From positions 1 to 39,498 of the IMG/VR virus record IMGVR_UViG_3300031949_000096: a stretch of DNA of 39,498 nucleotides. One strand, written 5' to 3'. Positions 6,352 to 19,830 of this stretch are shown piece by piece. The stretch's first letter is position 1. Each line of letters opens with the position of its first letter. This DNA is from a virus. The notes under the pieces are model-generated. The model was not told the origin of the DNA and made no database searches. It saw only the letters and a program-made list of their open reading frames with translations. The position numbers were made by a program, and so were the translations under genes.

Positions 6352-6373
6352 TGTCAAGCCCCCACTGTCCACA
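6352..6373 (-). promoter_or_regulatory. Composite box-like element plus GCTTGACA upstream of the portal gene
   Basis: The minus strand reads TGTGGACAG-TGGGGGC-TTGACA, a 7/9 DnaA-box match with a 7-nt spacer ending in GC. It lies in the 69-nt TerL-portal intergenic region. The geometry matches 9486..9507 and 18339..18360. Confidence 0.45.
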
Positions 6374-6376
6374 GTT

Positions 6377-8068
6377 TTAGCCGCCGTACTCGCCTTTTTT
6401 CTGTATCGTGTTCTTGTATTTGTTTCCCTGGTCGACCGAGCTGCCGGCTATCTTGGCCAGGTGTCGGCCCTCCCATGCGAGCGCTGCAGCGATGAGCTTG
6501 TCGAAGTGCCGGGTCTGTCCCTCCTTGACCTGGATGCTGCGCGCGTCCTCGTTGGTGAAGCGGTAGCACTCGTCGAGCAGGTCCGCGTCGAGTATCTCGA
6601 GGTCGCCATCCTGCACGGCCGAGCGGAACTGCGAGAGGATGTCGCTCTTCGTGCCGTGGCTCATCCAAAAGCCGTAGACGTCCATGGGCTTGCCGGTGGT
6701 GCGGTTCTTGACCTGGCGGATATAAATGTTGGTGTACTCGCAGCCGCCGTCCTCCTCGTTGCGCACGAGCGTGCCGATGCAGGCATAGCCATAGTTGTAT
6801 TCGGGCACCAGTATCGGCGAGCCGTACATGAGCAGCTCGCGGCGCAGCTCGAAGGCGAAGGTGTCGTGGCCGATTTGGTTGTCGGCAAAGGTACCCACCA
6901 GGAGGTTCGGCTTGCGGGAGATGTCGATGCCGGCGGAGGCGTTGTGGTCCCCGCCGTGCCCGGAGGCGTGGTCGGAGCCGAAGGAGTAGGCGTGCTTTTG
7001 GTCGTACTTTGCCCATATCTTAAAGCCTGCGTCGACCTTAATCGGCGGCTTGCATTTGGTGATGAGCTCTTTGATGCGTTCCCGGTCGAAGAAGTAGTCG
7101 GCCGCAGCGCCGGGCTCGTTCATCATCTCGACGGCAAAGGTGGTCTCGCCGAGCGAGCGACGCTTGCTCTCGACGGAGATGACCCTCTTGTCGCGGATAG
7201 TGATTTTCATGTTGATGGCGGCGGCCTCCTCGTCGGTGAGCACGAAACGTCCCGGCCAGGTGGGCTGCCCTTCAGTATCCAGCACTTTGATGTTGCGCAC
7301 CACTCCGCGCGTCCCCAGGCTCTGCACATGGAGCATGATGTCGGTCGCCACCCCGCCCTCCTGGATGTAGTTGGTGAGGTAGAGGATTTTCGCGCCGATG
7401 CCCATGCCGGCGCGCAGCGCGTTGATGTGCTTAATGATTTTGGTGGTGATGAGCCAGCTCTCCTTCGTTATCTCGTTCTCGACGTCGTCGATGAGGTAGA
7501 GGCCCGGGCGCCAGCGTTTGAAGAGGCGGCCGCGGGTGGAGCTGCCGGTGGAGAACGCCTCCACCTTGACCTTGTTGGTGGTGATAAACATACCGACGCG
7601 CTTGACCTCGGACCCTTCCTCTTCCTCCTCCTGCTGCGGCCGGCGGCGCTTGGTGTAGAGCCGGCCGAAGTCCTGGATGAGGCGCTTGTTGGTCATGAGC
7701 TCCTGCGAGACGTCGAAGAGCGTGGCCTCCGCGTTGTTTTTGTCGTAGGAGTCGACGTTGATATAGCGCTCGAGCTGGAAGCAGATGGCGTAGGTGATGA
7801 GGCACAGTTTGGCGATGGAGGTCTTGGCGCTCTCGCGGAAGCCCATCCAGTGCACCTCATCGAGCCGCCCCTCGAAGAGGCCGTGGATGTCCTCGTTAAA
7901 CTCAAAATGAAAGGGGGCGAAGCGGTGGGTGAAAAAGTGCGGGAAGTAGTAGATGGCGAAGTAGAGCGGCCCGAGCTTGCTGTTTTGGAAAAGGTATTTG
8001 CGCTGCGCCGGCGTGCCGGATTTTATAGCCTCGAGGACGATGGGGTTGAGTCGGAGCATTTTATGCAA
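6377..8068 (-). CDS. terL: Terminase large subunit
   Basis: 563 aa. It has a deviant Walker A (GFRESAKTS), a Walker B-like LYLIDDVENE, and a C-terminal nuclease-like half. It is followed by the portal gene. Confidence 0.85.
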   Translation of the reverse strand: MHKMLRLNPIVLEAIKSGTPAQRKYLFQNSKLGPLYFAIYYFPHFFTHRFAPFHFEFNEDIHGLFEGRLDEVHWMGFRESAKTSIAKLCLITYAICFQLERYINVDSYDKNNAEATLFDVSQELMTNKRLIQDFGRLYTKRRRPQQEEEEEGSEVKRVGMFITTNKVKVEAFSTGSSTRGRLFKRWRPGLYLIDDVENEITKESWLITTKIIKHINALRAGMGIGAKILYLTNYIQEGGVATDIMLHVQSLGTRGVVRNIKVLDTEGQPTWPGRFVLTDEEAAAINMKITIRDKRVISVESKRRSLGETTFAVEMMNEPGAAADYFFDRERIKELITKCKPPIKVDAGFKIWAKYDQKHAYSFGSDHASGHGGDHNASAGIDISRKPNLLVGTFADNQIGHDTFAFELRRELLMYGSPILVPEYNYGYACIGTLVRNEEDGGCEYTNIYIRQVKNRTTGKPMDVYGFWMSHGTKSDILSQFRSAVQDGDLEILDADLLDECYRFTNEDARSIQVKEGQTRHFDKLIAAALAWEGRHLAKIAGSSVDQGNKYKNTIQKKGEYGG

Positions 8069-8600
8069 AGTTGGCGCGGGGCACTAGGAGCTTGTGACCG
8101 CGCGCCTGGTCGCGGGCCTTCTTCTCGGCGATGAGCAGGGCCATGCGCGCATCCCGCTCGGGCTTGCTGCGCTTGCGGCTCGAGGCGCGATACTCCCGGT
8201 AGCTCTTGCCCGGGTTGACGTTGACGCACTCGTCGTCGATGAGCGCCTGGTACTTCTCGCTCGGCTTGGGTGTGCGGCGAGCCAGCAGCGGCACGCAGGG
8301 CGTGGTAGGGCCTATACGCTCGACGGAGAGGCGCTGGCGCCGGGTCTGTCGCATCTGTGCGGCGGTCATCCTGTCCGAGCGTGGCCGGCCGCGGCGCACG
8401 ATGACGGTGTTGGAGAACGCGGTGAGTCCTTGCGAAAAGCGCACGAGGTTGTAGCGGATGGTCGAGTAGTCGCAGCCGAAGTGCTTGCCGAGCCGCGGCA
8501 TCGACATCCCGGCGCGCCGGAGCTCGAGCAGCTCCTGCAGCTTCTCGGGGTTGCGGCCGAAGATGTCGCGGTTCTTTTGTGGGAGCGTCACGGAGCTCAT
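8061..8600 (-). CDS. HTH DNA-binding protein; positional candidate for the terminase small subunit
   Basis: 179 aa with an HTH (AGMSMPRLGKHFGCDYSTIRYNLVRF) and a basic C-terminal half. It overlaps the terL start by 8 nt. TAGAATAAACGCATG lies at its start. Confidence 0.5.
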   Translation of the reverse strand: MSSVTLPQKNRDIFGRNPEKLQELLELRRAGMSMPRLGKHFGCDYSTIRYNLVRFSQGLTAFSNTVIVRRGRPRSDRMTAAQMRQTRRQRLSVERIGPTTPCVPLLARRTPKPSEKYQALIDDECVNVNPGKSYREYRASSRKRSKPERDARMALLIAEKKARDQARGHKLLVPRANFA

Positions 8601-8618
8601 GCGTTTATTCTAACCGCA

Positions 8619-8650
8619 GAAAAAGACCCCGCGCGTTGCCGCGGGGGGTC
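8619..8650 (-). terminator. Intrinsic terminator candidate between the small late-leader genes and the packaging genes
   Basis: The minus strand has a CCCCGCG-N6-CGCGGGG stem (8627..8646) followed by TCTTTTTCT. It lies between the stop at 8671 and the start at 8600. Confidence 0.6.
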
Positions 8651-8670
8651 GGGTCGGATAGTCGGGAGCA

Positions 8671-8820
8671 TCACCACTTCTTGCCGCTCCCGAGATAAGT
8701 GAGCCAGCGGTCGCGCTTGTCGCGGTCGCGGGCCTCCTGGGCGCGTCGGTCGTGGTCATCCTCGGCCAGCGCTTCGAGCGAGTCGGTGATGAACTTCCAT
8801 ATCGAGCGGAGGTACTGCAT
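8671..8820 (-). CDS. Small hypothetical protein (49 aa; below the ORF-track length cutoff)
   Basis: MQYLRSIWKFITDSLEALAEDDHDRRAQEARDRDKRDRWLTYLGSGKKW. Its start shares one base with the upstream stop (TGATG). Confidence 0.55.
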   Translation of the reverse strand: MQYLRSIWKFITDSLEALAEDDHDRRAQEARDRDKRDRWLTYLGSGKKW

Positions 8821-9020
8821 CAGTGTCGACTCCTGCACCAGGTGACGAAGCAGCTATAGGCAGGGTCGTCGCCGCGTACCGGGACGCAGAAGAAGCGGAC
8901 CTTGCCGTCGGGGCACCGGGGCGCGGCGCGGTTGTCGCCGAGCTCGGTGTGACAGTTCGCGCAGGTGACGACCGTGGGGGCGCCACCGTTGACGTGCAGC
9001 AGCAGTTGAGGCTGGGCCAT
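8820..9020 (-). CDS. Small Cys-containing protein (possible zinc ribbon)
   Basis: 66 aa with CANC...RCPDG...FC...SC. It is translationally coupled to both neighbours. Confidence 0.6.
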   Translation of the reverse strand: MAQPQLLLHVNGGAPTVVTCANCHTELGDNRAAPRCPDGKVRFFCVPVRGDDPAYSCFVTWCRSRH

Positions 9021-9382
9021 TATGCCGCCTCCTCTTTCGTGAGGAAGAGAGTGAACTGCGCCAGCGGCGGACCGCGGACCCAGCCCATGCCGACGTTGAC
9101 GCCGACGACGATGATGTGCACGACCTCGGCGAGGCCTTGCTTGGTCCGCACCTCCCCGACCCTATCGCCGCGGATGTACGCGACGGCCAGGACTGCGCAG
9201 CCGTTGGTGCCGGCGTTGATGCGCTCGACGGCGGCTTCGGTTGCGACTCCCTCGTTGGAGAGCGCCACGAACTGCTCGACCTGCGCTTGAGTGTCGCAGA
9301 TGAGCCCGGTGCCGACGTGCACCTCTTGGGCTAGAGCGACTGACGGCAGGAGTGCCATCAGTAGTGCGACGATGTAGCGCAT
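9020..9382 (-). CDS. Secreted small protein with a signal peptide
   Basis: 120 aa beginning MRYIVALLMALLPSVALA-QE. It has a good SD (GAGAGGAG) and is the first gene after the leader hairpin. Confidence 0.7.
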   Translation of the reverse strand: MRYIVALLMALLPSVALAQEVHVGTGLICDTQAQVEQFVALSNEGVATEAAVERINAGTNGCAVLAVAYIRGDRVGEVRTKQGLAEVVHIIVVGVNVGMGWVRGPPLAQFTLFLTKEEAA

Positions 9383-9399
9383 GGTCTTCTCCTCTCGTT

Positions 9400-9454
9400 T
9401 GAAAAGAACAAGCGCCCGGAAGTTCCACCTCGATGGAGGTGATTAGCCGGGCGC
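9400..9454 (-). terminator. Leader hairpin, candidate terminator or attenuator, in front of the late operon
   Basis: The minus strand reads GCGCCCGG-CTAAT-CACCTC-CATC-GAGGTG-GAACTT-CCGGGCGC followed by TTGTTCTTTTC. This is an 8+6 bp interrupted stem (9412..9454), and the SD and ATG at 9382 follow it. Confidence 0.55.
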
Positions 9455-9467
9455 GTTACTGCTTTTC

Positions 9468-9507
9468 ATAATACCTCTAAAACCGTGTCAAGCCCGAGTT
9501 ATCCACA
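9468..9507 (-). promoter_or_regulatory. Leftward (late?) promoter candidate with a perfect DnaA box
   Basis: The minus strand reads TGTGGATAA (9507..9499)-CTCGGGC-TTGACA (9491..9486)-12 nt-TATTAT (9473..9468). The 12-nt spacing between the hexamers is non-canonical. Confidence 0.5.
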
Positions 9508-9553
9508 CGAGTTAGAGCCATCGTTTGCCTAAAATCACCCTATTTTCAGGATA

Positions 9554-9585
9554 TTGACAAAGTGCATTTGTTATAATGTATATAT
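9554..9585 (+). promoter_or_regulatory. Rightward promoter candidate
   Basis: TTGACA (9554..9559)-12 nt-TATAAT (9572..9577), followed by TGTATATAT. It lies in an AT-rich divergent intergenic region upstream of the plus-strand ORF at 9622. Confidence 0.45.
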
Positions 9586-9621
9586 GCGAGGTCGATTTTA
9601 TTGGCTCTAACTAACACTATT

Positions 9622-9807
9622 ATGCGTGTATATCATGTCAAAGTAGAGTGGCTTTATAAGGGCCGCTACCCGAAGACCTGGGAAGGTCGCGGCCAGGCGA
9701 GCACGCTGCAGGCGGCCATCGCCGCGGCGTCGCGCGACTGGAAGAAGCAGGGGCTCGCGCCCCGGGAGGTCTGCCGCCAGGCGACCGTGCGCGTCACGCT
9801 GGCTTAG
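9622..9807 (+). CDS. Small plus-strand hypothetical protein (61 aa)
   Basis: ATG inside track ORF 9601..9807; MRVYHVKVEWLYKGRYPKTWEGRGQAST... It converges on the HNH gene and overlaps its 3' end by 14 nt. Confidence 0.45.
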   Translation: MRVYHVKVEWLYKGRYPKTWEGRGQASTLQAAIAAASRDWKKQGLAPREVCRQATVRVTLA

Positions 9808-10291
9808 CCGAGTATTGGTTGCGGCCGCCGGAGAAGACATAGCTCATCTGCGACTTGGGGAGGAGCTCCAGGTTGGCGAGCTCGTTGTTGGCCGGGTTGC
9901 GGTCCCGGTGAAAGACACAATGGCCCGAGGGTATCGGGCCGTTTGCTTTCTCCCATACATACCAGTGCAGCAGCAGCCGGCGGCCGTTGACCGTGCCGCG
10001 GAGATGCCCGCCTTTGGTGAGAGTGAAGTTGATGCCGTCGACCACCTGCAGGCCTTTGAGCTTCTTGGTCCGCAGCGGGTAGCCTCGTGTATTAAAAATA
10101 TCGTAGACCGCCTGGCGCGTGCAGCCGTAGAGTTTGCCTATCGTGGCCAGCGACATCCCATCTTTATAGCAGTCGTACATCTCGGCGACTTTAAAATTAT
10201 TCTGTCGCTTCGGGTGCCGGTTGTAGCGTACTTGGTAGCCACGCTCCGGGTCCTTGTCGACGCGGGTGGGCCTTGGGGAGATGGTCCTCAT
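9794..10291 (-). CDS. HNH endonuclease with an N-terminal HTH
   Basis: 165 aa. The HNH motif reads HCVFHRDRNPANNELANLELL, and the HTH reads MSLATIGKLYGCTRQAVYDIF. Confidence 0.8.
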   Translation of the reverse strand: MRTISPRPTRVDKDPERGYQVRYNRHPKRQNNFKVAEMYDCYKDGMSLATIGKLYGCTRQAVYDIFNTRGYPLRTKKLKGLQVVDGINFTLTKGGHLRGTVNGRRLLLHWYVWEKANGPIPSGHCVFHRDRNPANNELANLELLPKSQMSYVFSGGRNQYSAKPA

Positions 10292-10476
10292 ACCAGGTTT
10301 ATACGCAGCCCATGGTGCTCTTGCAAGTGCCGGGAGACCATGTGCCGGTCGCCGTGGTAGCGCAGCATAAGCTGCCGGATGACCGAGAGGGCGTCTTCGG
10401 GCAGTGGAACGCTGCAGGGGGTCGTTTTGAGCGCCTGGATGCCCTTGTGGAAGTGGGGGCCTTGGAGCTTAGGCAT
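10288..10476 (-). CDS. Small hypothetical protein (62 aa)
   Basis: Internal ATG of track ORF 10288..10578. It has an 8-nt overlap with the upstream gene and an ATGA overlap with the HNH start. Confidence 0.55.
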   Translation of the reverse strand: MPKLQGPHFHKGIQALKTTPCSVPLPEDALSVIRQLMLRYHGDRHMVSRHLQEHHGLRINLV

Positions 10477-10771
10477 GGTCCGGGTCGATGGGCTTGATAC
10501 CCTCGGGCTCTCGGAGGAAGCGGGCCCGGGCCGCCGGCGCGTGCTGCAGCCACTCGAGCACGAGCGGGTCGTCGCCAAAAACTACTTTATAGCTGGGCTC
10601 GTGGTAGCCCTTCTTCATCCCGGTCAAAATCGCCGCGTGCTCCCAGGGCAGCATCTCGAGGCCACAGTTGTCCTGGTCCTCGCAGTAGTAGACGCGCCGC
10701 ATAAAGTTCGACGTCGTGAGCGTGCTCTCGCAGTTGGGGCAGCCGCCGGTGAGTATTCGTTTCCAGTCCAT
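10469..10771 (-). CDS. Zinc-ribbon protein (100 aa)
   Basis: Begins MDWKRILTGGCPNCESTL...YYCEDQDNCG. It is trimmed from track ORF 10469..11122 to the ATG that directly follows the upstream stop. Confidence 0.65.
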   Translation of the reverse strand: MDWKRILTGGCPNCESTLTTSNFMRRVYYCEDQDNCGLEMLPWEHAAILTGMKKGYHEPSYKVVFGDDPLVLEWLQHAPAARARFLREPEGIKPIDPDHA

Positions 10772-10772
10772 A

Positions 10773-11210
10773 CTAAAAATTGTTGAAGGCGTCGTCCACG
10801 GCCGCGAGCTCGGCCTGGCTCTGCACCCCGGTCCCCTCTTTGCTCGGCGTGCCGCCGATGCGCATAAAATATCCACGCGGCAAAAATATCTGCGCCCGGT
10901 GCGTGTTGAGTCCGTCCTTGAAGTGCAGAAAAGAGCCGTGCTCATGGAACACGGAGGAGCCCACCTGGTAGGTCGTGCCGGTCTCGGCGTCGATGACGCG
11001 GATGGTCGCTTTGATAGGCAGCAGCTGCTCGGTAAAGACCTGGGCGTCGATGCCCCAGGCGTCGAGCTTGCGGAAGAGGTGCTTGCTCTCCCGGACGTGC
11101 TTGGTAAAAATCCGGCGGCCATCGTCGAGGATGCCGATGAGGCGCTCGAAGTCGCCGTGCTTGATGGTGATGCCGCGGGGCTTGGTGTAGGTTATCTTTT
11201 TCTTTCTCAT
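10773..11210 (-). CDS. Hypothetical protein (145 aa)
   Basis: Begins MRKKKITYTKPRGITIKHGDFERL... The start forms an ATGA overlap with the upstream gene's stop. Confidence 0.65.
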   Translation of the reverse strand: MRKKKITYTKPRGITIKHGDFERLIGILDDGRRIFTKHVRESKHLFRKLDAWGIDAQVFTEQLLPIKATIRVIDAETGTTYQVGSSVFHEHGSFLHFKDGLNTHRAQIFLPRGYFMRIGGTPSKEGTGVQSQAELAAVDDAFNNF

Positions 11211-11383
11211 TTTTTTAGGCACTTCGGAGCGGTGCATAGGGTCTTCGTGCGGTCCGCCCAGGCGCAAGCGTGCGGGTAGTCGGCCACGATGCAGGCCCTC
11301 TCCTCGGTGCAGCCGCATTTGCGGCAGGTGCCCGGGAGCGAGCGGTACTTTTTCTTTTCGGGTGTTGAGGTACTAGAGGCCAT
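11207..11383 (-). CDS. Cys-rich small protein (58 aa), probably metal-binding
   Basis: Contains CRKCGCTEERAC...HAC...C...C, seven Cys in 58 aa. It overlaps the upstream gene by 11 nt. Confidence 0.6.
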   Translation of the reverse strand: MASSTSTPEKKKYRSLPGTCRKCGCTEERACIVADYPHACAWADRTKTLCTAPKCLKK

Positions 11384-13342: not shown

Positions 13343-13372
13343 TGTATATCACTATCCCTATAGGGATAGCAA
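13343..13372 (-). promoter_or_regulatory. Promoter candidate whose spacer carries most of an 18-bp perfect palindrome (operator candidate)
   Basis: The minus strand reads TTGCTA (13372..13367)-18 nt-TATACA (13348..13343) with TG two nt upstream of the -10. The palindrome CTATCCCTATAGGGATAG occupies 13352..13369. Confidence 0.5.
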
Positions 13373-13375
13373 GGG

Positions 13376-13394
13376 CCCGGTGTGGATAACCGGG
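13376..13394 (-). promoter_or_regulatory. Perfect DnaA box (13381..13389) embedded in a 6-bp inverted repeat
   Basis: The plus strand reads CCCGGT-GTGGATA-ACCGGG. TGTGGATAA is the reverse complement of TTATCCACA. Confidence 0.6.
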
Positions 13395-13435: not shown

Positions 13436-13618
13436 ATGCCCGGCAAGGAGGAGGACCCGCGCGAAGTGCTGCGACGCTGCGACCGCAACGAACTCCTCAC
13501 TATGCTGATACTCTCGGGTCTACTGATGGTGACATTTGCGGCAGGGGTGCAGCTGGGCGGATGGGCGAGCTCACTGCAGCCGGCAGAAGCGGCGGATAGT
13601 TCTTCTCCGTCCCGATGA
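13436..13618 (+). CDS. Small plus-strand membrane protein candidate (60 aa)
   Basis: MPGKEEDPREVLRRCDRNELLTMLILSGLLMVTFAAGVQLGGW... contains one TM helix. By my hand count, GC3 in the overlap with 13500..13814 is higher in this frame than in the opposing frame. No SD is visible. Confidence 0.4.
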   Translation: MPGKEEDPREVLRRCDRNELLTMLILSGLLMVTFAAGVQLGGWASSLQPAEAADSSSPSR

Positions 13619-13814
13619 GCTCGTAGAAAAGCCACAGGCTCTTCGGCTTGAAATGGTGCTGGATGTGCGGCTTGTCGATGCGCTTGCCTTTCGGCCGGTC
13701 GCCGCCGCGCGTTATCAAAATATCGTGCACCTCCGCTTTGCGGCCTTTGATGAGAGAGAGGCGGCGCCACACCTGGCCTTTGCATATCTTCGGGCCGGTG
13801 AGCTTTCTACTCAT
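13500..13814 (-). CDS. Hypothetical protein (104 aa); the C-terminal third may be read-through
   Basis: The N-terminal 70 aa look protein-like, and the start forms an ATGA overlap with the upstream gene. The last 30 aa or so are Pro/Ala/Ser low complexity and overlap the plus-strand ORF. Confidence 0.5.
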   Translation of the reverse strand: MSRKLTGPKICKGQVWRRLSLIKGRKAEVHDILITRGGDRPKGKRIDKPHIQHHFKPKSLWLFYELIGTEKNYPPLLPAAVSSPIRPAAPLPQMSPSVDPRVSA

Positions 13815-14320
13815 GGCTTAGTGTAGTCGGGCCCGCGGCGCATGACCTCGATGATTTGCTCGAGCGTGTAAGCATCCGGCACGTTCTCCAGCTTGACCGA
13901 GAAGGCGGGGTTGGTGACCACGATAAAGGCCTCCGGCGGCGTGCCCGGCGGCCGCAGCATCTGCAGCTGCAGGATGGTCTCGACACGCCCGGCGCCTTCC
14001 TCGGTGAGCATCACCTGCTGGAAGCGGTCGGAGTTGGGGATTATCTCCCACAGGATGACCACCTTGCGCTGGTAGAGCTCGCGTATAAGGCTCGAGGAGG
14101 CCTGTGCTCCGGCCGGGACGCTACCCTGGCCCATCTGCGACGCCGGCCACGGCACCATACTCGGCCGCTGCGGCTTAACCGAGAGGTCCACGACGGTCCA
14201 CTTGCAGGGAGCGACGTGGCCGTGCTCGATGGTGCAGCCTTCGTGGACGCTGCCCATGTTGCGACCCTCGCAAGTCGGGCAGTGCTTAGTGAGTTTTTTC
14301 GTGTGGCGTTTGGCTACCAT
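13811..14320 (-). CDS. Hypothetical protein (169 aa) with an N-terminal Cys/His cluster
   Basis: Begins MVAKRHTKKLTKHCPTCEGRNMGSVHEGCTIEHGHVAPC... It is trimmed from track ORF 13811..14509 to the ATG 4 nt after the upstream stop. Confidence 0.65.
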   Translation of the reverse strand: MVAKRHTKKLTKHCPTCEGRNMGSVHEGCTIEHGHVAPCKWTVVDLSVKPQRPSMVPWPASQMGQGSVPAGAQASSSLIRELYQRKVVILWEIIPNSDRFQQVMLTEEGAGRVETILQLQMLRPPGTPPEAFIVVTNPAFSVKLENVPDAYTLEQIIEVMRRGPDYTKP

Positions 14321-14324
14321 AAAA

Positions 14325-14537
14325 TTATTCGTCTTTCGGAGAGATGAGGATGTCGTTGTGCACGAGCTTTTTGCGCAGCACCCAGGCCACGATAGTCCAA
14401 AAGACCATTTTGCCCGAGACCGGCGTCTCGAAACTGGCGCGCATCTCCGGCACCCAGGCGCACGGTCCATCCTCATGCGGCGGCCGCCGGCAATAGCCGG
14501 GCTCTCCATGTGGATTTTGTTTGGTGCAGTGTTGCAT
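14325..14537 (-). CDS. Small hypothetical protein (70 aa)
   Basis: It has 4-nt gaps to both neighbours, several Cys/His residues and one hydrophobic segment. Confidence 0.55.
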   Translation of the reverse strand: MQHCTKQNPHGEPGYCRRPPHEDGPCAWVPEMRASFETPVSGKMVFWTIVAWVLRKKLVHNDILISPKDE

Positions 14538-14541
14538 AAAA

Positions 14542-15117
14542 TTATGCCTCCTCGTTCATGCGCAGGATGTCGTCGAGAGCCTCGCGCTCTTCCTCTCCGA
14601 GCGTGTGCTCCACCCGGTCCGTCGGCCGGCCCTCGAGCATGGCGATGCTTTTATCGAGCACCTGCAGGCCGAAGGCGAGCTGGCCGTAGTTGGCGGTGTT
14701 GGTCTCGAGCTCGATGCGCGTGAGCGTTGCCTCGCGTATTTTCTGCAGTCGAGCGAGGTGGTCTTGCACGGTGTCACTGTTGCGAGCGGCCTGCACGATG
14801 CTCGGAGGTTGAGCGTGCGCGGTCGTTTTTGCGTAGCCGGCGGCGAGCATCATCTCCTCTAGGGAGAGGGGTGGGGTTTTACCAATATTCTCCAACATGA
14901 GCTTCTCCAGCTTTTTCCTTCTCTCACTATCCTGCAGCTGCCCAGCTTTTCCATTTTTAAACGCTCTCGCGATGACTGCAGGAGCGGGAGCTGCTGGACG
15001 GCGCACGACCACCGGCGCCGCGCTCACCACCGAGCTCGGGACTACTGCCTTGCGCTTAACAACGCGCACAGTAGGCTCCACCATCACTCTCTTTTTTAAC
15101 TTAGGTCGGATACGCAT
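14542..15117 (-). CDS. Terminase-small-subunit-like HTH protein (second TerS candidate)
   Basis: 191 aa. LSLEEMMLAAGYAKTTAHAQPPSIVQAARNSDTVQDHL resembles the AGYS-type HTH of phage small terminases. The gene lies about 6 kb from terL. Confidence 0.4.
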   Translation of the reverse strand: MRIRPKLKKRVMVEPTVRVVKRKAVVPSSVVSAAPVVVRRPAAPAPAVIARAFKNGKAGQLQDSERRKKLEKLMLENIGKTPPLSLEEMMLAAGYAKTTAHAQPPSIVQAARNSDTVQDHLARLQKIREATLTRIELETNTANYGQLAFGLQVLDKSIAMLEGRPTDRVEHTLGEEEREALDDILRMNEEA

Positions 15118-15172
15118 GGTCTTGTCTTAAAACTCTATCATCACTTCGCGCTCGGACTAAGCGGCACCAGGC

Positions 15173-15207
15173 CAAAAAATCGCGGCGCGGAACTTGTTTA
15201 GGCCGCG
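15173..15207 (-). terminator. Intrinsic terminator candidate
   Basis: The minus strand reads CGCGGC-15 nt-GCCGCG followed by ATTTTTTGG. The stop codon at 15198 lies in the loop. Confidence 0.5.
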
Positions 15208-15389
15208 GCGGCCGCCACTCTCGGCCGTACTGTGAACAACGACACTTGACCCTCCGCCGGCTGGAGTCGCTCGCACTTCGCGCACGTCCTCGCTTTCGCC
15301 CGGGCATAGGAGAAGGCGATGCGCTTGTGGGTGCAGTGCTTGCAGGTGTAGGGATAGACGCTGCGCCGCTTTGTATCCCGGCTCCTCAT
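15198..15389 (-). CDS. Zinc-ribbon small protein (63 aa)
   Basis: Contains CKHC...CAKC. The start forms an ATGA overlap with the upstream gene. Confidence 0.6.
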   Translation of the reverse strand: MRSRDTKRRSVYPYTCKHCTHKRIAFSYARAKARTCAKCERLQPAEGQVSLFTVRPRVAAAAA

Positions 15390-16141
15390 ATGCTCCAGGA
15401 GTCTATCTCCCCCTTAATAAAGCGCTGGATGTTGGCGGCGCTCTTGCCCATTTTCTCCAGCTTCTCCCGGATGACTTTGTCACGCCCCTCGAGCACGACC
15501 TTCACGGCCTCCCCGATAGTCGCCGAGTCGTGCTTGTACGTTATGAGCTCCACCCCGGAGGCCGTCTCGAAGGCTTTGACCTTGTCCTGGAGGCTCTTGA
15601 GCTCTCGAGGGGCTATGCCTGCGCTCGAGGCGCCCACGGTCTTGCCCCGCTCGAACTCCTCGCTCATGCGGCCGGCGATGGTGGCCGAGGGTATCATCCC
15701 CTTCGTTAGGTTGCGCATGAGCGCCGCCAGGAAGCTCGCGTCTATGGGCTGCGGCGTGAGCTTGACCGCCTCTTTGATTATTTTGAGCCCGGTGCCGCTC
15801 GGCACGATGAGCCCCCACTTCTCCGGCAGCTCACCCAGCTGCACTATGTCCGGGTCTCCCACGACGATGTACCAGTAGTCGCAAAAGCAGGCGAGCTCGT
15901 CGGCCTTCTGCGGGTTGCGTATCTCTCGTATAAAATCCCCGCGGGAGACCTTGACCTCGAAGCCGGTGATGTGCAGCCCGCGACTCGGCCACAGGCTCAT
16001 CGCCATCGCGTCCATGGTCCGGGTCGCACTAAAGCCGGCGCCGTTGCGCACCTGCGTCAAAAAGCCATACTCGGGCTGCGAGTACCGCTTGGAGAGGCGC
16101 TCTATCACCTCGTCCGTGTTGAGTGTTTTCTTGACCCCCAT
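15386..16141 (-). CDS. PD-(D/E)XK nuclease, MmcB-like N-terminal domain
   Basis: 251 aa. RTMDAMAMSLWPSRGLHITGFEVKVSRGDF...CDYWYIVV matches the D...E-x-K core of MmcB-family proteins as I recall them. Confidence 0.6.
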   Translation of the reverse strand: MGVKKTLNTDEVIERLSKRYSQPEYGFLTQVRNGAGFSATRTMDAMAMSLWPSRGLHITGFEVKVSRGDFIREIRNPQKADELACFCDYWYIVVGDPDIVQLGELPEKWGLIVPSGTGLKIIKEAVKLTPQPIDASFLAALMRNLTKGMIPSATIAGRMSEEFERGKTVGASSAGIAPRELKSLQDKVKAFETASGVELITYKHDSATIGEAVKVVLEGRDKVIREKLEKMGKSAANIQRFIKGEIDSWSI

Positions 16142-16144
16142 AAA

Positions 16145-16303
16145 TTATTCCAGCAACAGCTGCACCTCCACCACCCGGCAGCCGACGCCGCCATCCAGGA
16201 GAGTTTTGGCCATCTGTTTCTCGGCCCACTTGCGCGAGTCGAAGAGCATACTGATTCGCAGCTCTCCGTCGGCACGCACGATAGCAAAATACTTTTTCTG
16301 CAT
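16145..16303 (-). CDS. Small hypothetical protein (52 aa)
   Basis: Begins MQKKYFAIVRADGELRISMLF... This is the internal ATG of track ORF 16145..16411, 1 nt after the upstream stop. Confidence 0.5.
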   Translation of the reverse strand: MQKKYFAIVRADGELRISMLFDSRKWAEKQMAKTLLDGGVGCRVVEVQLLLE

Positions 16304-16304
16304 A

Positions 16305-16463
16305 TTATTCCAGCTCCTCGAGCTCCTCCGGCTCTTCGTCGACCACCTCATCCTCCTCGAGGTCGTCCGGGTAGTTGATGCGGTCTTCGGCCACAGGCAC
16401 AGGCTCGCCAAAAAGAAAGGCTTTGATGCGGCCGGCTAGTGAGTAGTCCCGGTAGGTGACCAT
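16305..16463 (-). CDS. Small protein with a strongly acidic C-terminus (52 aa; not in the ORF track)
   Basis: My own translation is MVTYRDYSLAGRIKAFLFGEPVPVAEDRINYPDDLEEDEVVDEEPEELEELE. It has 1-4 nt gaps to its neighbours. Confidence 0.5.
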   Translation of the reverse strand: MVTYRDYSLAGRIKAFLFGEPVPVAEDRINYPDDLEEDEVVDEEPEELEELE

Positions 16464-16467
16464 AGAG

Positions 16468-16713
16468 TTATCCTTGGCCCGGCTCCGAGCGGTCCATTAT
16501 GCAATTCATCGCGAGCTCCGCCATGGCGCTGCGCGTCGTGCGACCTTTGCCGATAAAGAGGCGAGCCGCGCAGGTCTCGCTTTTGCCGACCACGATGCTG
16601 GCCTCCCACTCCGTGCTGCGGTTGTTGGTCTCGAGCTTAAAGCTGCAGGAGTCCGCCGTCGGGTGTCCCTCGAGAATCGCTTTTACTAGTGCCGGTGCGA
16701 TGTGGTCTATCAT
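16468..16713 (-). CDS. Small hypothetical protein (81 aa)
   Basis: Begins MIDHIAPALVKAILEGHPTADSCSFKLE... This is the internal ATG of track ORF 16468..16812. Confidence 0.55.
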   Translation of the reverse strand: MIDHIAPALVKAILEGHPTADSCSFKLETNNRSTEWEASIVVGKSETCAARLFIGKGRTTRSAMAELAMNCIMDRSEPGQG

Positions 16714-16717
16714 ATTT

Positions 16718-16879
16718 TTATCCGTTGCCCGGGTACTCGGCGTCCATCTGCTGCAGGAGGTCGCGCAGGTCGTTTTTGACCTTAATCGCGGCCATCTCCT
16801 TGCCCGAAGCATCGGCCCGGAGGGTATACTCCCGGTCCTCTACTTTGAGCTTAAATGTGAAGGTGGTGATGACGTCCAT
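16718..16879 (-). CDS. Small hypothetical protein (53 aa; not in the ORF track)
   Basis: My own translation is MDVITTFTFKLKVEDREYTLRADASGKEMAAIKVKNDLRDLLQQMDAEYPGNG. It has 4-nt gaps on both sides. Confidence 0.5.
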   Translation of the reverse strand: MDVITTFTFKLKVEDREYTLRADASGKEMAAIKVKNDLRDLLQQMDAEYPGNG

Positions 16880-16883
16880 GGTA

Positions 16884-17282
16884 TTAGTAGCGGCGCTCTC
16901 CCGGTCGACGTTCGCGCATAGGTCCGAAGTCCCCGCCGTCGCCTTGGTCTCGCCGCGGCTGCTGGCGCTCGGTGATGATGCGCTCGATGTCCTCGAAGGC
17001 CATGCCGTCCTTGCGCATCGACGCGCGCAGGGTCATGAAGAGCTCGTCCTCGAGCGCGCGGATGATGCCATCCTTAACGCCTAAAGACCGCTCGATGCGG
17101 CCGTTGGCTTGGATGCTCTCCCCTACGTTGCGCTCTGCACGCTCGACCTTGGCGTTTGCCTCGCGCACCTGGGTCTCCAGGTTGCCGACCGTGATGTTTT
17201 TGTGCTCGAGCCGCGTCTTGAGCTCGCGGTTTTCTGCGAGGAGCTGCCTGCGGGACTTTATTGTTGGTTTTTGCCGGGCCAT
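16884..17282 (-). CDS. Coiled-coil hypothetical protein (132 aa)
   Basis: Begins MARQKPTIKSRRQLLAENRELKTRLEHKNITVGNLETQVREANAKVERAE... It is trimmed from track ORF 16884..17645. Confidence 0.6.
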   Translation of the reverse strand: MARQKPTIKSRRQLLAENRELKTRLEHKNITVGNLETQVREANAKVERAERNVGESIQANGRIERSLGVKDGIIRALEDELFMTLRASMRKDGMAFEDIERIITERQQPRRDQGDGGDFGPMRERRPGERRY

Positions 17283-17296
17283 GATTTTAGAGGGGG

Positions 17297-17893
17297 TTAG
17301 TCCTGCTTGTAGATTTTGTAATCGCCGGCGAGTATCTCCTTGGCGAACTGGAGGCCGGTGTCGATGTCCTTGCGGCGGTCTTCCATCTTCTTCTTCGTGA
17401 CCACAATATCCTCCTCGGCGTTTTCGATTTGAGTGAGGATGCCGGCATCTTTGCCCTCTCCGTTGAGCTCGGCATCGAGCTCCTGGCGCTTCTTGGTGAT
17501 GCGAGCGCGCTCTTTTTGGTAGGCGGCGCGGCCCTCTTTGTCCTTCGCGTCGGTCGGCGCCTTGAGGTCCGCAAGCTCCTGGTCGAGTGCCGCTATCTCC
17601 GGCTCTATCTCCGCGGCGCGCGCCTTCTTCTCGTCGATGCGCCATGCGAACTGGCGTATCTTCATGTCGTCCTCGACGATGGCCTCGCGGTTGGCGCGGA
17701 TGTGCGAGTAGATGGTCTCGGCAGCGATGAAGGGAGCGATGGTGTCCGGCTCCGGCTTGTAGAGCACGACGATGCCCTCTTCTTTGAACTGCAGCGCCGG
17801 CATGGCGTCGGTGTGGTAGAGGTGCGCGGTCTGCAGGAACTGGTTGAGCTCATCCTGCTGGTCGTACTTAAAAACGCGGGTTTGAAGTGTCAT
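17297..17893 (-). CDS. Hypothetical protein (198 aa) with a charged coiled-coil C-terminal half
   Basis: A clean ORF and the second gene of the early leftward operon. Confidence 0.65.
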   Translation of the reverse strand: MTLQTRVFKYDQQDELNQFLQTAHLYHTDAMPALQFKEEGIVVLYKPEPDTIAPFIAAETIYSHIRANREAIVEDDMKIRQFAWRIDEKKARAAEIEPEIAALDQELADLKAPTDAKDKEGRAAYQKERARITKKRQELDAELNGEGKDAGILTQIENAEEDIVVTKKKMEDRRKDIDTGLQFAKEILAGDYKIYKQD

Positions 17894-17898
17894 ATAAA

Positions 17899-18291
17899 TT
17901 ATGCGAAGGCCGAAGCCGGGCTAAGGTTAATAGTCGATAGAACCGCTGCCGCACCAGGACCGCCACCGCTCGGGGCCGAGGGCATAGGTGCCGGGGCGCT
18001 GCCGCCGCCCGCACCCGACTCCCCGGTCCCTTTCTCCGGCACGTCGAGCTCGACCTCCACCTTCGGGAGGCCTAGCTTCTGCCCGGCTGCCCACGCGAGC
18101 GCCCGGATGGCGTTTGCGTTGGTGCCTTTCTTGCCGATGATGAAGCGCGCATCCGCCGGGTTGCAGCGGACGGTATAGACCAGCACTCCCTCCTCGAGTT
18201 TATGCGACACCGAGACGGCACCTTCGTCCGGCACAATGGCTTTCGCCAGCGTGGTGATGAGAGCGACGATGACGAGCTCGTTGGTATCCAT
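17899..18291 (-). CDS. KH-domain RNA-binding protein, KhpA/UPF0109-like, with a Gly/Pro/Ala-rich tail
   Basis: 130 aa. LVIVALITTLAKAIVPDEGAVSVSHK..LVYTVRCNPADARFIIGKKGTNANAIRALAWAAG matches the KhpA-type KH fold, including the GxxG loop (GKKG). It is the first gene of the early leftward operon. Confidence 0.7.
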   Translation of the reverse strand: MDTNELVIVALITTLAKAIVPDEGAVSVSHKLEEGVLVYTVRCNPADARFIIGKKGTNANAIRALAWAAGQKLGLPKVEVELDVPEKGTGESGAGGGSAPAPMPSAPSGGGPGAAAVLSTINLSPASAFA

Positions 18292-18338
18292 ACTTGCTGC
18301 TCATTGTACCCCCTGCTCCTGCAGGGCCAGCTGCGCGG

Positions 18339-18391
18339 TGTGGATAACTCATGCTTGACGCGCTTGACAGGTCAAGGGAGTCAAGTAAGAT
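18339..18391 (+). promoter_or_regulatory. Rightward promoter candidate with a perfect DnaA box
   Basis: TGTGGATAA (18339..18347)-CTCATGC-TTGACG (18355..18360)-CGC-TTGACA (18364..18369)-16 nt-TAAGAT (18386..18391). It lies in the divergent region between the KH gene and the plus-strand island. Confidence 0.55.
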
Positions 18392-19829: not shown

Positions 19830-19830
19830 C

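What the first reader, a model, noticed from the sequence alone, without database searches (positions are those of the whole stretch)
6352..18369. Recurrent composite element: DnaA(-like) box, exactly 7 nt, then GCTTGAC(A/G)
Seen, read 5'-3' on the strand of the downstream gene:
- 9507..9486: TGTGGATAA-CTCGGGC-TTGACA, upstream of the late leader.
- 18339..18360: TGTGGATAA-CTCATGC-TTGACG, followed 3 nt later by a second GCTTGACA. This lies upstream of the rightward island.
- 6373..6352: TGTGGACAG-TGGGGGC-TTGACA, upstream of portal.
- 3955..3940: TGTGGATAG-C-TTGACA, a fourth site with different spacing.

The 7-nt spacer always ends in GC.

Caveat, also seen: the best -10-like hexamers lie only 12-13 nt after TTGACA at 9.49 kb (TATTAT), 9.55 kb (TATAAT) and 6.36 kb (TACACT). 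That is too short for a canonical sigma-70 promoter. Only the 18364 copy has canonical spacing (16 nt to TAAGAT).

Inference: this is either a DnaA-dependent promoter class, with the box centred roughly at -50, or a bipartite binding site for a phage factor in which TTGACA is not a -35 element.
Basis: seen in the sequence. Interest (0 to 1): 0.7.

Follow-up and report, generated by a model that had tools for sequence, protein, structure and literature searches.

The report
DnaA-box promoters of an uncultured phage
A newly seen phage places the binding site of the bacterial replication starter protein DnaA at a fixed distance upstream of most of its promoters and also encodes its own copy of DnaA's DNA-binding domain, which suggests that its gene expression is wired to the host's replication machinery.

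Summary
TGTGGAYAR-N7-TTGACR occurs 3 times where 0.00 are expected. The 9-mer occurs 8 times where 0.54 are expected.

The 7-nt gap to TTGACA is not the conserved unit. Across 9 related phage loci, a DnaA box lies 24-29 nt (direct orientation) or about 29-32 nt (inverted) upstream of a conserved -10 element, TAnnnT, often preceded by TGn.

TTGACA is a second, optional module. It sits 12-15 nt from the -10, which is too close to act as a sigma-70 -35 element. It is absent from several orthologous promoters.

At 18.3 kb, the first TTGACG is one of four TTGAC half-sites in a 42-bp palindrome. That palindrome overlaps the only promoter with canonical spacing.

The phage encodes a 110-aa protein consisting only of DnaA domain IV. 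It keeps the base-reading residues, an Arg and the DHTTV motif. Next to its gene lies an origin-like cluster of boxes followed by TA(A/G) trinucleotide repeats.

My best reading is a class of DnaA-box-dependent phage promoters, with the box centred near -42 to -47. They would be read by host DnaA and/or the phage domain-IV protein, more likely as activators than repressors. No transcription start sites or binding data exist. The host is unknown.

The parts
9499..9507 (-). DnaA box TGTGGATAA of the late promoter (site 1)
   Evidence: Exact consensus. The orthologue in L004 is also TGTGGATAA. L002 has an inverted TTATCCCCC 30 nt from its -10.
9486..9491 (-). TTGACA module of the late promoter, 7 nt after the box and 12 nt before the -10
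   Evidence: L004 has box-8-TTGACA-12-TTCAAT. L002 has TTGCGC-14-TATACT.
9468..9473 (-). Inferred -10 element TATTAT of the late promoter, 25 nt after the box
   Evidence: A -10-like hexamer sits at the same place in L004 (TGcTTCAAT) and L002 (TGtTATACT).
9400..9454 (-). Late leader hairpin (GCGCCCGG ... CCGGGCGC) followed by a U-run; terminator-like
   Evidence: Folding energy -35 kcal/mol, z = -4.8. The inverted repeat was found. An equivalent hairpin plus T-run is present in L004 and L002.
9554..9577 (+). Divergent promoter TTGACA-12-TATAAT without a box; drives the conserved 61-aa gene at 9622-9807(+)
   Evidence: Conserved in L004 as TTGACA-12-TATAAT. The 61-aa product is 74% identical in L004.
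6365..6373 (-). Weak DnaA-like box TGTGGACAG (site 3), directly after the terL stop codon
   Evidence: Not conserved: L001 has TGTTCACAG and L002 has TATGCACAG. L004 instead has an inverted CTATCCCCA 30 nt from the -10.
6352..6357 (-). TTGACA module of the portal promoter, 13 nt before the -10
   Evidence: TTGACA, TTGCAT or TTGCAC is present in all 5 orthologues, 12-15 nt from the -10.
6333..6341 (-). Extended -10 element TGATACACT of the portal promoter
   Evidence: TG(A/G)TACACT is invariant in the 5-way alignment A2.
3947..3955 (-). DnaA box TGTGGATAG (site 4), embedded in the last codons (T-V-D-S) of ORF 3922-4293
   Evidence: TGTGGA(T/C)A is invariant in 6 phages (alignment A3). It uses the rare T-ending codons ACT/GGT and GAT in a genome with third-position GC of about 0.85.
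3913..3918 (-). -10 element TATACT of the site-4 promoter, 28 nt after the box and 10 nt before the ATG at 3902 (near-leaderless)
   Evidence: GTATA(C/A)T is invariant in A3; coordinates. The TTGACA at 3940-3945 is not conserved in the orthologues.
18339..18347 (+). DnaA box shared by two divergent promoters (site 2)
   Evidence: Exact consensus. Read on the minus strand, it lies 30 nt upstream of TACAAT. A box lies upstream of the KH-gene -10 in 5 phages: L002 inverted at 29 nt, L022 inverted at 32, L001 direct at 26, L006 direct at 25.
18303..18308 (-). -10 element TACAAT of the leftward KH-gene promoter, 11 nt before the ATG at 18291; no -35 element
18349..18390 (+). 42-bp imperfect palindrome with four TTGAC/GTCAA half-sites (18355, 18364, 18371, 18380). 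It covers the N7 TTGACG, the true -35 TTGACA (18364-18369), and the first five bases of the -10 TAAGAT (18386-18391)
   Evidence: Inverted repeat with 20-nt arms, 80% complementary, 2-nt gap. Canonical 16-nt spacing between -35 and -10.
13381..13389 (+). Further exact DnaA box in the 312-nt intergenic region. Read on the minus strand, it is followed by an 18-bp perfect palindrome (13352-13369) and TGATATACA (TATACA at 13343-13348, 32 nt from the box)
23128..23175 (-). Promoter-like region upstream of the RecT / ATPase / DnaA-IV operon: TTATCCCC (23168-23175), TGTGGACAC (23151-23159), then 17 nt, then TATACT (23128-23133)
   Evidence: L022 has boxes at the equivalent place, near 6699 and 6732.
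19915..20247 (-). Gene for a 110-aa stand-alone DnaA domain IV protein
   Evidence: PF08299, E = 6.5e-12, above the curated cut-off. Matches the C-terminal part of the TIGR00362 DnaA model. Matches M. tuberculosis DnaA domain IV, PDB 3PVP, at 3.4e-5 with DHTTV and the upstream Arg aligned. These residues are conserved across the family. 324 clusters found, nearly all of the best 150 being 90-240 aa.
19689..19914 (-). Origin-like region. On the minus strand: TGTGGGTAA, TGTGGATAA, hairpin plus T-run, TTATCCACA twice, then TTATCCGAG-CTATCCCCA, cccc, and TAATAGTAATAGTAG (19707-19721)
   Evidence: The same layout follows the DnaA-IV gene in L002, L020 and L022, and it is also present in L019. It fits the published box-spacer-trio definition (PMC8287927).
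19094..19339 (+). 81-aa helix-turn-helix protein resembling sigma-70 region 4.2; a candidate binder of TTGAC(A), by inference only
   Evidence: Pfam Sigma70_r4, E = 1.2e-4, below the curated cut-off. The best PDB matches are weak and are mostly SigA/SigB/RpoD region 4. Weak NCBIfam matches to sigma-32 and ECF sigma factors. 69% identical homologue in L002.

Best explanation
The composite marks a class of phage promoters built from up to three modules.
1. A -10 element, TAnnnT, often with an upstream TGn extension. This is always present.
2. A DnaA box 24-29 nt upstream of the -10 in direct orientation, or about 29-32 nt upstream when inverted. If the -10 spans -12 to -7, the box is centred near -42 to -47.
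3. In this clade, an optional TTGACA-like hexamer 6-8 nt after the box and 12-15 nt before the -10.

Inferred mechanism:
- A protein bound to the box takes the place of a -35 contact and recruits host RNA polymerase, as a class II activator does.
- That protein would be host DnaA at the start of infection. In phages that carry the gene, the 110-aa domain-IV-only protein could bind as well.
- TTGACA at this spacing cannot be read as a normal -35 element. It is probably a site for a second factor or for displaced sigma region 4.

The phage has no RNA polymerase or DNA polymerase gene that I could find. Its origin-like region has DnaA boxes plus DnaA-trio-like repeats. Transcription and replication would then both be keyed to host DnaA.

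Shown: the motifs, their enrichment, their conservation, their geometry, and the domain-IV gene.
Inferred: binding, activation rather than repression, start sites, and the timing of expression.
For: Enrichment in this window:
- The composite has 3 hits against 0.00 expected, and the box 8 against 0.54.
- Box-N24-30-TAnnnT has 3 hits against 0.01 expected.

Geometry across phages:
- I pooled 83 boxes from 9 non-redundant phage loci.
- A -10-like hexamer falls 24-29 nt after a direct box in 13 of 29 cases (binomial 1.2e-6).
- It falls 24-34 nt after an inverted box in 13 of 29 cases (8e-4).

Phylogenetic footprints:
- At site 4, the box and GTATAmT are invariant in 6 phages while the sequence between them varies. 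The box is held by rare T-ending codons.
- TGnTACACT is invariant in 5 terL-portal spacers.
- The KH-gene promoter has a box in 5 phages.

Support for the -10 assignment:
- Several of these -10 elements lie 6-11 nt before an ATG, as in leaderless mRNAs.

Short spacing as a class:
- Spacings of 12-15 nt account for 15 of 27 TTGACA-like hexamer to TAnnnT pairs in 5 phages; 16-18 nt account for only 4.

The candidate readers:
- The domain-IV protein keeps the Arg and the DHTTV reading residues.
- The temperate relatives L001 and L006 carry an integrase where this phage has the RecT / ATPase / DnaA-IV module. They still keep exact boxes at two promoters, which points to host DnaA as a reader.

Precedent:
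- DnaA is an established activator and repressor of transcription, at nrdAB and at lambda pR (PMC8203912).
Against: - There are no transcription start sites, so the -10 assignments and the -42 to -47 positions are inferred.
- The box is not conserved at the portal promoter in L001, L002 and L006, so it is dispensable there.
- The divergent 9554 promoter has TTGACA-12-TATAAT and no box, so the short-spacer architecture can stand alone.
- Promoters with an extended -10 can work without any activator, so the box could equally mediate repression.
- DnaA boxes inside transcription units are also known to block elongating polymerase (my own knowledge, not checked here).
- The inverted-orientation peak is broad, and some pooled hits are origin sequences rather than promoters.
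- The contigs of the relatives are incomplete, so the absence of a DnaA-IV gene in L001 and L006 rests on synteny only.
- The host, and therefore its DnaA-box consensus, is unknown.
Confidence: 0.55

Rival explanations
1. These are ordinary sigma-70 promoters. TTGACA is a true -35 element, the real -10 lies 16-18 nt downstream and is weak, and the DnaA box is an upstream site centred near -47 to -50.
For: TTGACA is a perfect -35 hexamer. One copy, at 18364, does have a 16-nt spacer to TAAGAT. DnaA boxes just upstream of a -35 element are known at nrdAB (PMC8203912).
Against: No TAnnnT lies 16-18 nt after the TTGACA at 9486 or at 6352. The hexamers that are conserved in orthologues lie 12-15 nt away: TGnTACACT is invariant in 5 phages, while sequence at the 17-nt position is not conserved. 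Site-4 orthologues and the KH promoters of the window, L001 and L002 keep the box and the -10 but have no TTGACA.
Confidence: 0.13
2. The boxes act as repressor sites. DnaA, or the phage domain-IV protein (which lacks the other DnaA domains), sits where the -35 region would be, or in the path of elongating polymerase. It switches these promoters or operons off, for example to time early and late expression or to block read-through between terL and portal.
For: DnaA represses its own gene and others through boxes in promoter regions (PMC8203912). Promoters with TGn-extended -10 elements need no activator. The box cluster next to the DnaA-IV gene and the box-like sequences upstream of its operon would suit autoregulation.
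Against: Simple occlusion does not need the narrow, orientation-dependent distance to the -10 that is observed. The KH-gene promoter heads the long operon of small early-type genes and lacks any -35 element, so it looks activator-dependent.
Confidence: 0.2
3. The composite is a two-protein site for phage factors. The domain-IV protein binds the box, and the 81-aa sigma-region-4-like helix-turn-helix protein binds TTGACA about 30 nt upstream of the start. Together they redirect host polymerase to a non-canonical promoter class, in the manner of T4 MotA/AsiA middle promoters.
For: The 12-15 nt distance from TTGACA to the -10 matches the geometry of a -30 box. Four TTGAC half-sites form a 42-bp palindrome over the promoter of the operon that encodes the 81-aa protein, which looks like an operator. 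The 81-aa protein's recognition helix aligns with sigma region 4.2: SYEEIGKDAGISKQRVGQI against TLEEVGKVFGVTRERIRQI. In L017 the same position between box and -10 is occupied by a different palindrome, AACGGGCnGCCCGTT, as expected for a phage-specific factor site.
Against: The similarity to sigma region 4 is weak: Pfam is below its cut-off and the PDB E-values are 0.2-0.9. No MotA or AsiA homologue was detected. Single TTGACA half-sites at the late promoters are poor targets for a dimer. L006 has box-7-TTGCAC-12-TAAGAT, yet neither gene is visible in its 17-kb contig.
Confidence: 0.15
4. The dispersed boxes serve replication or DnaA titration rather than transcription. They would act as secondary loading or titration sites, and their proximity to promoters follows simply from their being in non-coding DNA.
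For: The phage clearly uses DnaA boxes in an origin-like region with trio-like repeats. Distant relatives are very rich in boxes: L017 has 18 and L019 has 15, allowing up to 1 mismatch.
Against: This does not explain the preferred distance and orientation relative to the -10. It also does not explain a box kept inside coding sequence exactly upstream of a conserved -10.
Confidence: 0.07

Closest known systems
DnaA-regulated bacterial and phage promoters (E. coli nrdAB and dnaA; lambda pR)
   Same: A 9-bp DnaA box in a promoter region modulates host RNA polymerase. DnaA can activate or repress. A phage (lambda) exploits host DnaA for transcription linked to replication (PMC8203912).
   Different: Here a single box sits at a fixed 24-32 nt from the -10 at most promoters of the genome, apparently in place of a -35 element, and the arrangement recurs across a whole phage group. 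In lambda the boxes lie downstream of pR (my own knowledge). No phage-encoded domain-IV protein is involved in any of the known cases.
Class II activator-dependent promoters (CRP or FNR at -41.5; lambda cI at PRM)
   Same: The activator site overlaps or abuts the -35 region, is centred near -42, and the promoter has a weak or missing -35 element (textbook knowledge).
   Different: Those activators are dimers on palindromic sites. A DnaA box is an asymmetric monomer site. It occurs here in both orientations, with an offset of roughly 4-5 bp between them. Activation has not been shown.
Phage T4 middle promoters (MotA box with AsiA sigma appropriation)
   Same: A sigma-70-type -10 element is combined with a phage-specific box centred near -30, about 12 bp upstream of the -10, instead of a -35 element (my own knowledge). 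The TTGACA module here has the same geometry.
   Different: The hexamer here is the -35 consensus itself, not TGCTT. No MotA or AsiA homologue was found among the proteins scanned. There is an additional DnaA box upstream.
Stand-alone DnaA DNA-binding-domain genes in HTVC010P-type pelagiphages
   Same: These are podovirus-type phages without their own RNA or DNA polymerase that carry a PF08299-only gene in the replication region (PMC8477408).
   Different: That paper proposes only a role in replication. No promoter-associated boxes or origin structure were described. I did not test sequence relatedness to those phages.
Bacterial origin basal unwinding system (DnaA boxes + GC spacer + DnaA-trios)
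   Same: The window segment 19707-19743 has tandem boxes, a 4-bp GC spacer, and five TA(A/G) trinucleotides. This matches the published search rules (PMC8287927). It is repeated in L002, L019, L020 and L022.
   Different: It lies in a phage genome next to a domain-IV-only gene. It concerns the origin-like region, not the promoter composite, and unwinding has not been tested.

Membership tests
DnaA box (binding site of DnaA domain IV) | 9-mer matching TTATCCACA or accepted variants | tested here: met
   There are 6 exact copies, plus TGTGGATAG, TGTGGACAG and TGTGGGTAA. The site-3 variant CTGTCCACA has 2 mismatches and is not conserved.
DnaA box (binding site of DnaA domain IV) | Over-representation and non-random placement | tested here: met
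   8 hits against 0.54 expected. All lie in non-coding DNA or in the last codons of a gene. They are conserved at orthologous places.
DnaA box (binding site of DnaA domain IV) | Bound by DnaA or by a domain-IV protein | not testable with these tools
   Needs EMSA, footprinting or ChIP. A cognate-looking reader is encoded at 19915-20247.
Canonical sigma-70 promoter | A -35 hexamer and a -10 hexamer separated by 16-18 nt | tested here: not met
   The spacings are 12 nt at site 1, 13 nt at site 3 and 21 nt at site 4. Only the TTGACA at 18364, with 16 nt to TAAGAT, meets the rule.
Class II activator-dependent promoter | Activator site centred near -41.5, with a poor -35 element at the canonical position | tested here: inconclusive
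   A box-to-(-10) distance of 24-32 nt gives centres of about -41 to -49, but only if the -10 spans -12 to -7. No start sites are known.
Class II activator-dependent promoter | Transcription depends on the bound activator | not testable with these tools
   Needs in vitro transcription or reporter assays.
T4-type middle promoter (sigma appropriation) | A box centred near -30, about 12 nt upstream of a sigma-70 -10 element | tested here: met
   A TTGACA-like hexamer lies 12-15 nt from the -10 in 11 promoters of 5 phages.
T4-type middle promoter (sigma appropriation) | MotA-like activator and AsiA-like co-activator encoded by the phage | tested here: not met
   No such family appeared in the Pfam, PHROGs or NCBIfam scans of about 40 ORFs. 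Many ORFs have no match at all, so distant analogues cannot be excluded.
Sigma-54 promoter | GG and GC separated by 10 nt (TGGCAC-N5-TTGCA) | tested here: not met
   In the composite, GG and GC are 9 nt apart, and the offset from TGG to TTG is 14 rather than 11. This is read directly from the sequence.
Stand-alone DnaA domain IV protein (PF08299 only) | A Bac_DnaA_C domain above the curated cut-off, no AAA+ domain, and the base-contacting Arg and DHTTV retained | tested here: met
   45.7 bits against a cut-off of 31.5. The protein is 110 aa. The alignment to M. tuberculosis DnaA domain IV includes the motif. The Arg and His are invariant in the 14-sequence family alignment.
Origin basal unwinding system | Tandem DnaA boxes no more than 3 bp apart, a GC spacer of about 4 bp, and at least 3 NAN trinucleotides | tested here: met
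   TTATCCGAG-CTATCCCCA, cccc, TAA-TAG-TAA-TAG-TAG at 19707-19743. The rules are taken from PMC8287927. The first box matches the consensus at only 6 of 9 positions. L002 and L019 have better copies.

The most novel reading that the evidence does not exclude
A group of polymerase-less podovirus-like phages has replaced the -35 element of most of its promoters by a DnaA box. Phage transcription from the first early operon to the head genes would then be licensed by the host replication initiator. The phage's own domain-IV-only protein, perhaps together with a sigma-region-4-like helix-turn-helix protein on TTGACA at about -30, would then take over or re-tune these promoters. This would be a new form of host-polymerase redirection built from a domesticated fragment of DnaA.
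Probability: 0.2. Interest if true: 0.85.

Novelty: new variant of a known kind. Interest (0 to 1): 0.62.

Why it matters
DnaA is known as a transcription factor at a handful of cellular promoters and at lambda pR. It is not known as a general promoter element of a phage.

If the box really substitutes for the -35 contact, these phages couple their whole expression programme to the amount or state of the host initiator, which is a read-out of host growth.

It would also assign a function to stand-alone DnaA domain IV proteins. This search found 324 clusters of them, and none has a described role in the papers I found.

The system is easy to test. There are short defined sites, a 110-aa protein, and clear predictions for spacing and orientation. 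It also offers compact DnaA-responsive promoter parts.

The neighbouring origin-like region, with boxes plus trio-like repeats, would extend the bacterial origin-unwinding module to phages.

Tried and rejected
Searches that found nothing:
- Megablast of 14.5 kb against GenBank phages gave no match.
- tblastn of terL found only Mu-like and other terminases below 30% identity.
- tblastn of the DnaA-IV protein against phages gave no match.
- An IMG/VR scan with terL found no relative.

Host identification failed:
- The scan of reference genomes found only prophage-like relatives at 44% identity or less, in unrelated phyla.
- The window has no tRNA genes.
- Rfam found nothing.

Readings of the motif that I rejected:
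- The box as a -35 element (TGGATA followed by 17 nt): no -10 follows.
- A sigma-54 promoter: the GG-to-GC spacing is wrong by 1 and the offset between the two elements by 3.
- A longer dispersed repeat: the flanks of the three copies are unrelated.
- A conserved 7-nt spacer sequence, or a spacer ending in GC: not conserved in relatives.
- TTGACA as a generally enriched word: 12 hits against 8.65 expected.

Other points:
- A word-indexed protein search with DnaA-IV alone returned only 2 hits. A profile search returned 12. Two of those gave useful phage contigs, L020 and L022.
- I could not fetch the missing halves of the L001, L002 and L004 contigs. Whether each relative has a DnaA-IV gene therefore rests on synteny.
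- I did not run structure prediction, because the sequence evidence for domain IV was already above the curated thresholds.

Full report
**1. What is in the sequence**

The composite TGTGGAYAR-N7-TTGACR has three exact hits, at 6352-6373(-), 9486-9507(-) and 18339-18360(+). None appeared in 100 dinucleotide-preserving shuffles.

The 9-mer is the enriched part. TGTGGAYAR occurs 8 times against 0.54 expected, with six exact TGTGGATAA copies. TTGACA alone is not enriched, at 12 against 8.65.

At 9.49, 9.55 and 6.36 kb the best -10-like hexamer lies only 12-13 nt after TTGACA, giving 3 hits against 0.10 expected. Only the TTGACA at 18364 has canonical spacing.

**2. Genome context**

The window is about 61% GC and is almost entirely transcribed leftward. 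It looks like a complete genome of roughly 39.5 kb from an uncultured podovirus-like phage.

Genes identified:
- an SU10-type adaptor;
- a 1569-aa polyvalent protein;
- terL and portal;
- RecT;
- a PD-(D/E)XK plus FtsK/HerA-type ATPase;
- RusA;
- an HNH endonuclease.

I found no RNA polymerase, DNA polymerase or integrase among the scanned ORFs, and no tRNA gene. It has no close relative in GenBank phages or in IMG/VR.

ORF 19915-20247(-) encodes a 110-aa protein that is only DnaA domain IV:
- PF08299, E = 6.5e-12, above the curated cut-off.
- It aligns to the C-terminal 70 positions of the DnaA equivalog model.
- It aligns to M. tuberculosis DnaA domain IV, with the DHTTV recognition motif and the upstream arginine in register.
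- Both features are conserved in a family alignment.
- A full HMMER scan of 1.84 billion representatives found 324 clusters. Nearly all of the best 150 are 90-240 aa, so stand-alone domain IV is a real family.
- The only phage mention I found is a PF08299-only gene in HTVC010P-type pelagiphages, with a presumed replication role (PMC8477408).

**3. Relatives and what is conserved**

A terL protein search gave four phages at 74-81% identity (L001, L002, L004, L006). It also gave more distant ones at about 45% (L017-L019). A DnaA-IV profile search gave two more phages with the same RecT / ATPase / DnaA-IV module (L020, L022).

*Site 4.* The alignment of six phages shows TGTGGA(T/C)A and GTATA(C/A)T invariant, with variable sequence between them. 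The box sits in the last codons, (T/G)-V-D-S, of the gene after portal. It is kept by T-ending codons (ACT/GGT, GAT) in genomes whose third-position GC is about 0.85. This argues for selection on the DNA. The TTGACA of the window is not conserved here.

*Site 3, the terL-portal spacer.* TG(A/G)TACACT, an extended -10, is invariant in five phages. A TTGACA, TTGCAT or TTGCAC hexamer lies 12-15 nt upstream in all five. The box is good only in the window.

*Site 1, the late promoter.*
- Window: box-7-TTGACA-12-TATTAT.
- L004: box-8-TTGACA-12-TTCAAT.
- L002: inverted TTATCCCCC, 30 nt from TATACT.
- All three are followed by a leader hairpin plus U-run. In the window this folds at -35 kcal/mol, z = -4.8.

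*The KH-gene promoter, head of the long leftward operon of small genes.*

| Phage | Box orientation | Arrangement |
|---|---|---|
| Window | inverted | box, 30 nt, TACAAT |
| L002 | inverted | box, 29 nt, TATACT |
| L022 | inverted | box, 32 nt, TACACT |
| L001 | direct | box, 26 nt, TACTAT |
| L006 | direct | box-7-TTGCAC-12-TAAGAT |

*Pooled test.* I pooled 83 boxes from nine non-redundant loci. A -10-like hexamer falls 24-29 nt after a direct box in 13 of 29 cases (binomial 1.2e-6). It falls 24-34 nt after an inverted box in 13 of 29 cases (8e-4).

*Leaderless starts.* Several of these -10 elements lie 6-11 nt before the ATG, as in leaderless mRNAs. This independently supports reading them as -10 elements.

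**4. What this means for the composite**

The conserved relation is box to -10, not box to TTGACA. The 7-nt gap is 6, 7 or 8 nt in relatives, or the hexamer is missing. The GC ending of the spacer is particular to this window.

TTGACA forms a second module. Counting TTGACA-like hexamers followed by TAnnnT in five phages, spacings of 12, 13, 14 and 15 nt give 5, 4, 4 and 2 cases. Spacings of 16, 17 and 18 nt give 3, 0 and 1. One of the short-spacer promoters has no box at all: TTGACA-12-TATAAT at 9554(+), conserved in L004. It drives a conserved 61-aa gene.

Sigma region 4 cannot reach a hexamer 12-15 nt from the -10 in a normal holoenzyme. So TTGACA here is either a site for another protein or is read by a remodelled polymerase.

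Site 2 is different in kind. The N7 TTGACG is the outermost of four TTGAC half-sites in a 42-bp imperfect palindrome (18349-18390). That palindrome covers the canonical promoter TTGACA-16-TAAGAT, which looks like an operator. The single box there lies between two divergent promoters. L002 has a different palindrome at the same place. L017 carries yet another palindrome between box and -10. This is what phage-specific regulator sites would look like.

A candidate TTGAC binder is the 81-aa helix-turn-helix protein encoded by that same operon. It resembles sigma region 4.2, but the similarity is weak.

**5. Who reads the box**

Two candidates exist.

The phage domain-IV protein has the right residues.

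Host DnaA is favoured for at least some promoters, for three reasons:
- The KH promoter heads what looks like the early operon, and it has no -35 element.
- The temperate relatives L001 and L006 carry an integrase where this phage has the RecT / ATPase / DnaA-IV / origin / RusA block. They still keep exact boxes at the KH promoter and at site 4.
- The origin-like region next to the DnaA-IV gene has tandem boxes, a 4-bp GC spacer and five TA(A/G) trinucleotides (19707-19743). The layout recurs in L002, L019, L020 and L022. It fits the published box-spacer-trio rules, in which the trios are bound by the AAA+ domain that the phage protein lacks (PMC8287927).

**6. Mechanism I commit to**

These are box-dependent promoters. 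A protein bound at about -42 (direct) to -47 (inverted) supplies the upstream contact that a -35 element normally gives. This works like a class II activator.

I prefer activation over repression, at roughly 60:40. The distance is narrow and shifts with orientation, which simple occlusion would not require, and several of these promoters lack any -35 element. Repression or road-blocking by DnaA remains a serious rival. All binding, timing and start sites are inferred.

**7. Comparison with known systems**

- It works like DnaA-modulated promoters (nrdAB, lambda pR; PMC8203912) and like class II activator promoters.
- The TTGACA module has the geometry of the T4 MotA box. No MotA or AsiA homologue was found, so the system is not a member of that family.
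- It is not a canonical sigma-70 promoter, because the spacing test fails.
- It is not a sigma-54 promoter.

**8. Verdict**

The finding is real and biologically meaningful, but the description needs correcting. It is a modular promoter class in which a DnaA box sits at a fixed distance from the -10 element. TTGACA is an optional element at about -30, and at 18.3 kb it is part of an operator-like palindrome.

Novelty: a new variant of a known kind, namely DnaA-regulated promoters. If the phage domain-IV protein proves to be a promoter-specificity factor, the significance would be greater.

Noticed in passing
window 19689-19914 (also L002 1750-1995, L019 about 2928-3130, L020 10342-10548, L022 10339-10550): An origin-like region lies directly after the DnaA-IV gene. 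It has two pairs of DnaA boxes flanking a hairpin, then tandem boxes, a 4-bp GC spacer, and TAATAGTAATAGTAG (five TA(A/G) trinucleotides). This matches the bacterial DnaA-trio basal unwinding layout and is conserved in five phages.
   Followed up: partly
window 9400-9454 (-): The late leader begins with a strong hairpin plus U-run (-35 kcal/mol, z = -4.8) between the late promoter and the first late gene. It is conserved in L004 and L002. This implies antitermination or attenuation control of the late operon. No antiterminator was identified.
   Followed up: partly
window 2713-2958 (-); L002 15153-15402; L004 9198-9448: A conserved non-coding element of about 245 nt lies upstream of the putative major capsid gene. 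Its consensus fold is -72 kcal/mol, and 13 of 56 pairs show compensatory changes among three sequences. It has no Rfam match. It may be a structured 5' UTR or a small RNA.
   Followed up: partly
window 9622-9807 (+): A small 61-aa gene on the opposite strand, 74% identical in L004, is transcribed divergently from the late promoter by a conserved TTGACA-12-TATAAT promoter. It has no family match and could be a regulator.
   Followed up: partly
window 19094-19339 (+): An 81-aa helix-turn-helix protein has a recognition helix resembling sigma-70 region 4.2. It is encoded in the three-gene rightward operon, whose promoter lies inside the TTGAC palindrome.
   Followed up: partly
window 17899-18291 (-); L001 6565, L002 3845, L006 6526, L019 1432, L022 15045: A KH-domain (KhpA/B-like) RNA-binding protein is the first gene of the long leftward operon in the window and its closest relatives, and a KH-domain gene is also present in L019 and L022. 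Its role is unknown. It might act on the recurring leader hairpins.
   Followed up: no
window 6314, 9444, 12804, 18419(+), 23095, 32431: CCCGGC(A/T)R recurs in leaders just downstream of predicted promoters. Overall there are 18 hits against 10.2 expected, and about a third lie in the small non-coding fraction. In the portal leader it forms a small hairpin with a compensatory change between phages.
   Followed up: partly
window 13343-13389: An exact DnaA box is followed by an 18-bp perfect palindrome, CTATCCCTATAGGGATAG, and then TGATATACA, inside a 312-nt intergenic region. It looks like another regulated promoter or operator.
   Followed up: no
window 3902-3918, 18291-18308; L002 about 3900; L004 about 8215: Several -10 elements lie only 6-11 nt before the start codon, which predicts leaderless mRNAs. 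This may be a clue to the unknown host.
   Followed up: no
window 24789-29498 (-): A 1569-aa polyvalent protein has a zeta-toxin-like kinase domain and an LPD38 domain. It is probably an ejected virion protein.
   Followed up: no
L001 5486-6334 and L006 5484-6275: An IS1595-family transposase is inserted just upstream of the KH-gene promoter in both temperate relatives. Both also share a repeated leader, 'aggcacaactgaata', after two different promoters.
   Followed up: no
window 9510-9520 / 9602-9612 and 23130-23149: A perfect 11-nt inverted repeat (AGTTAGAGCCA / TGGCTCTAACT) brackets the divergent promoter pair at 9.5 kb. It is not conserved in L004. A tandem TATACCCGC repeat lies in the spacer of the promoter at 23.1 kb.
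   Followed up: no
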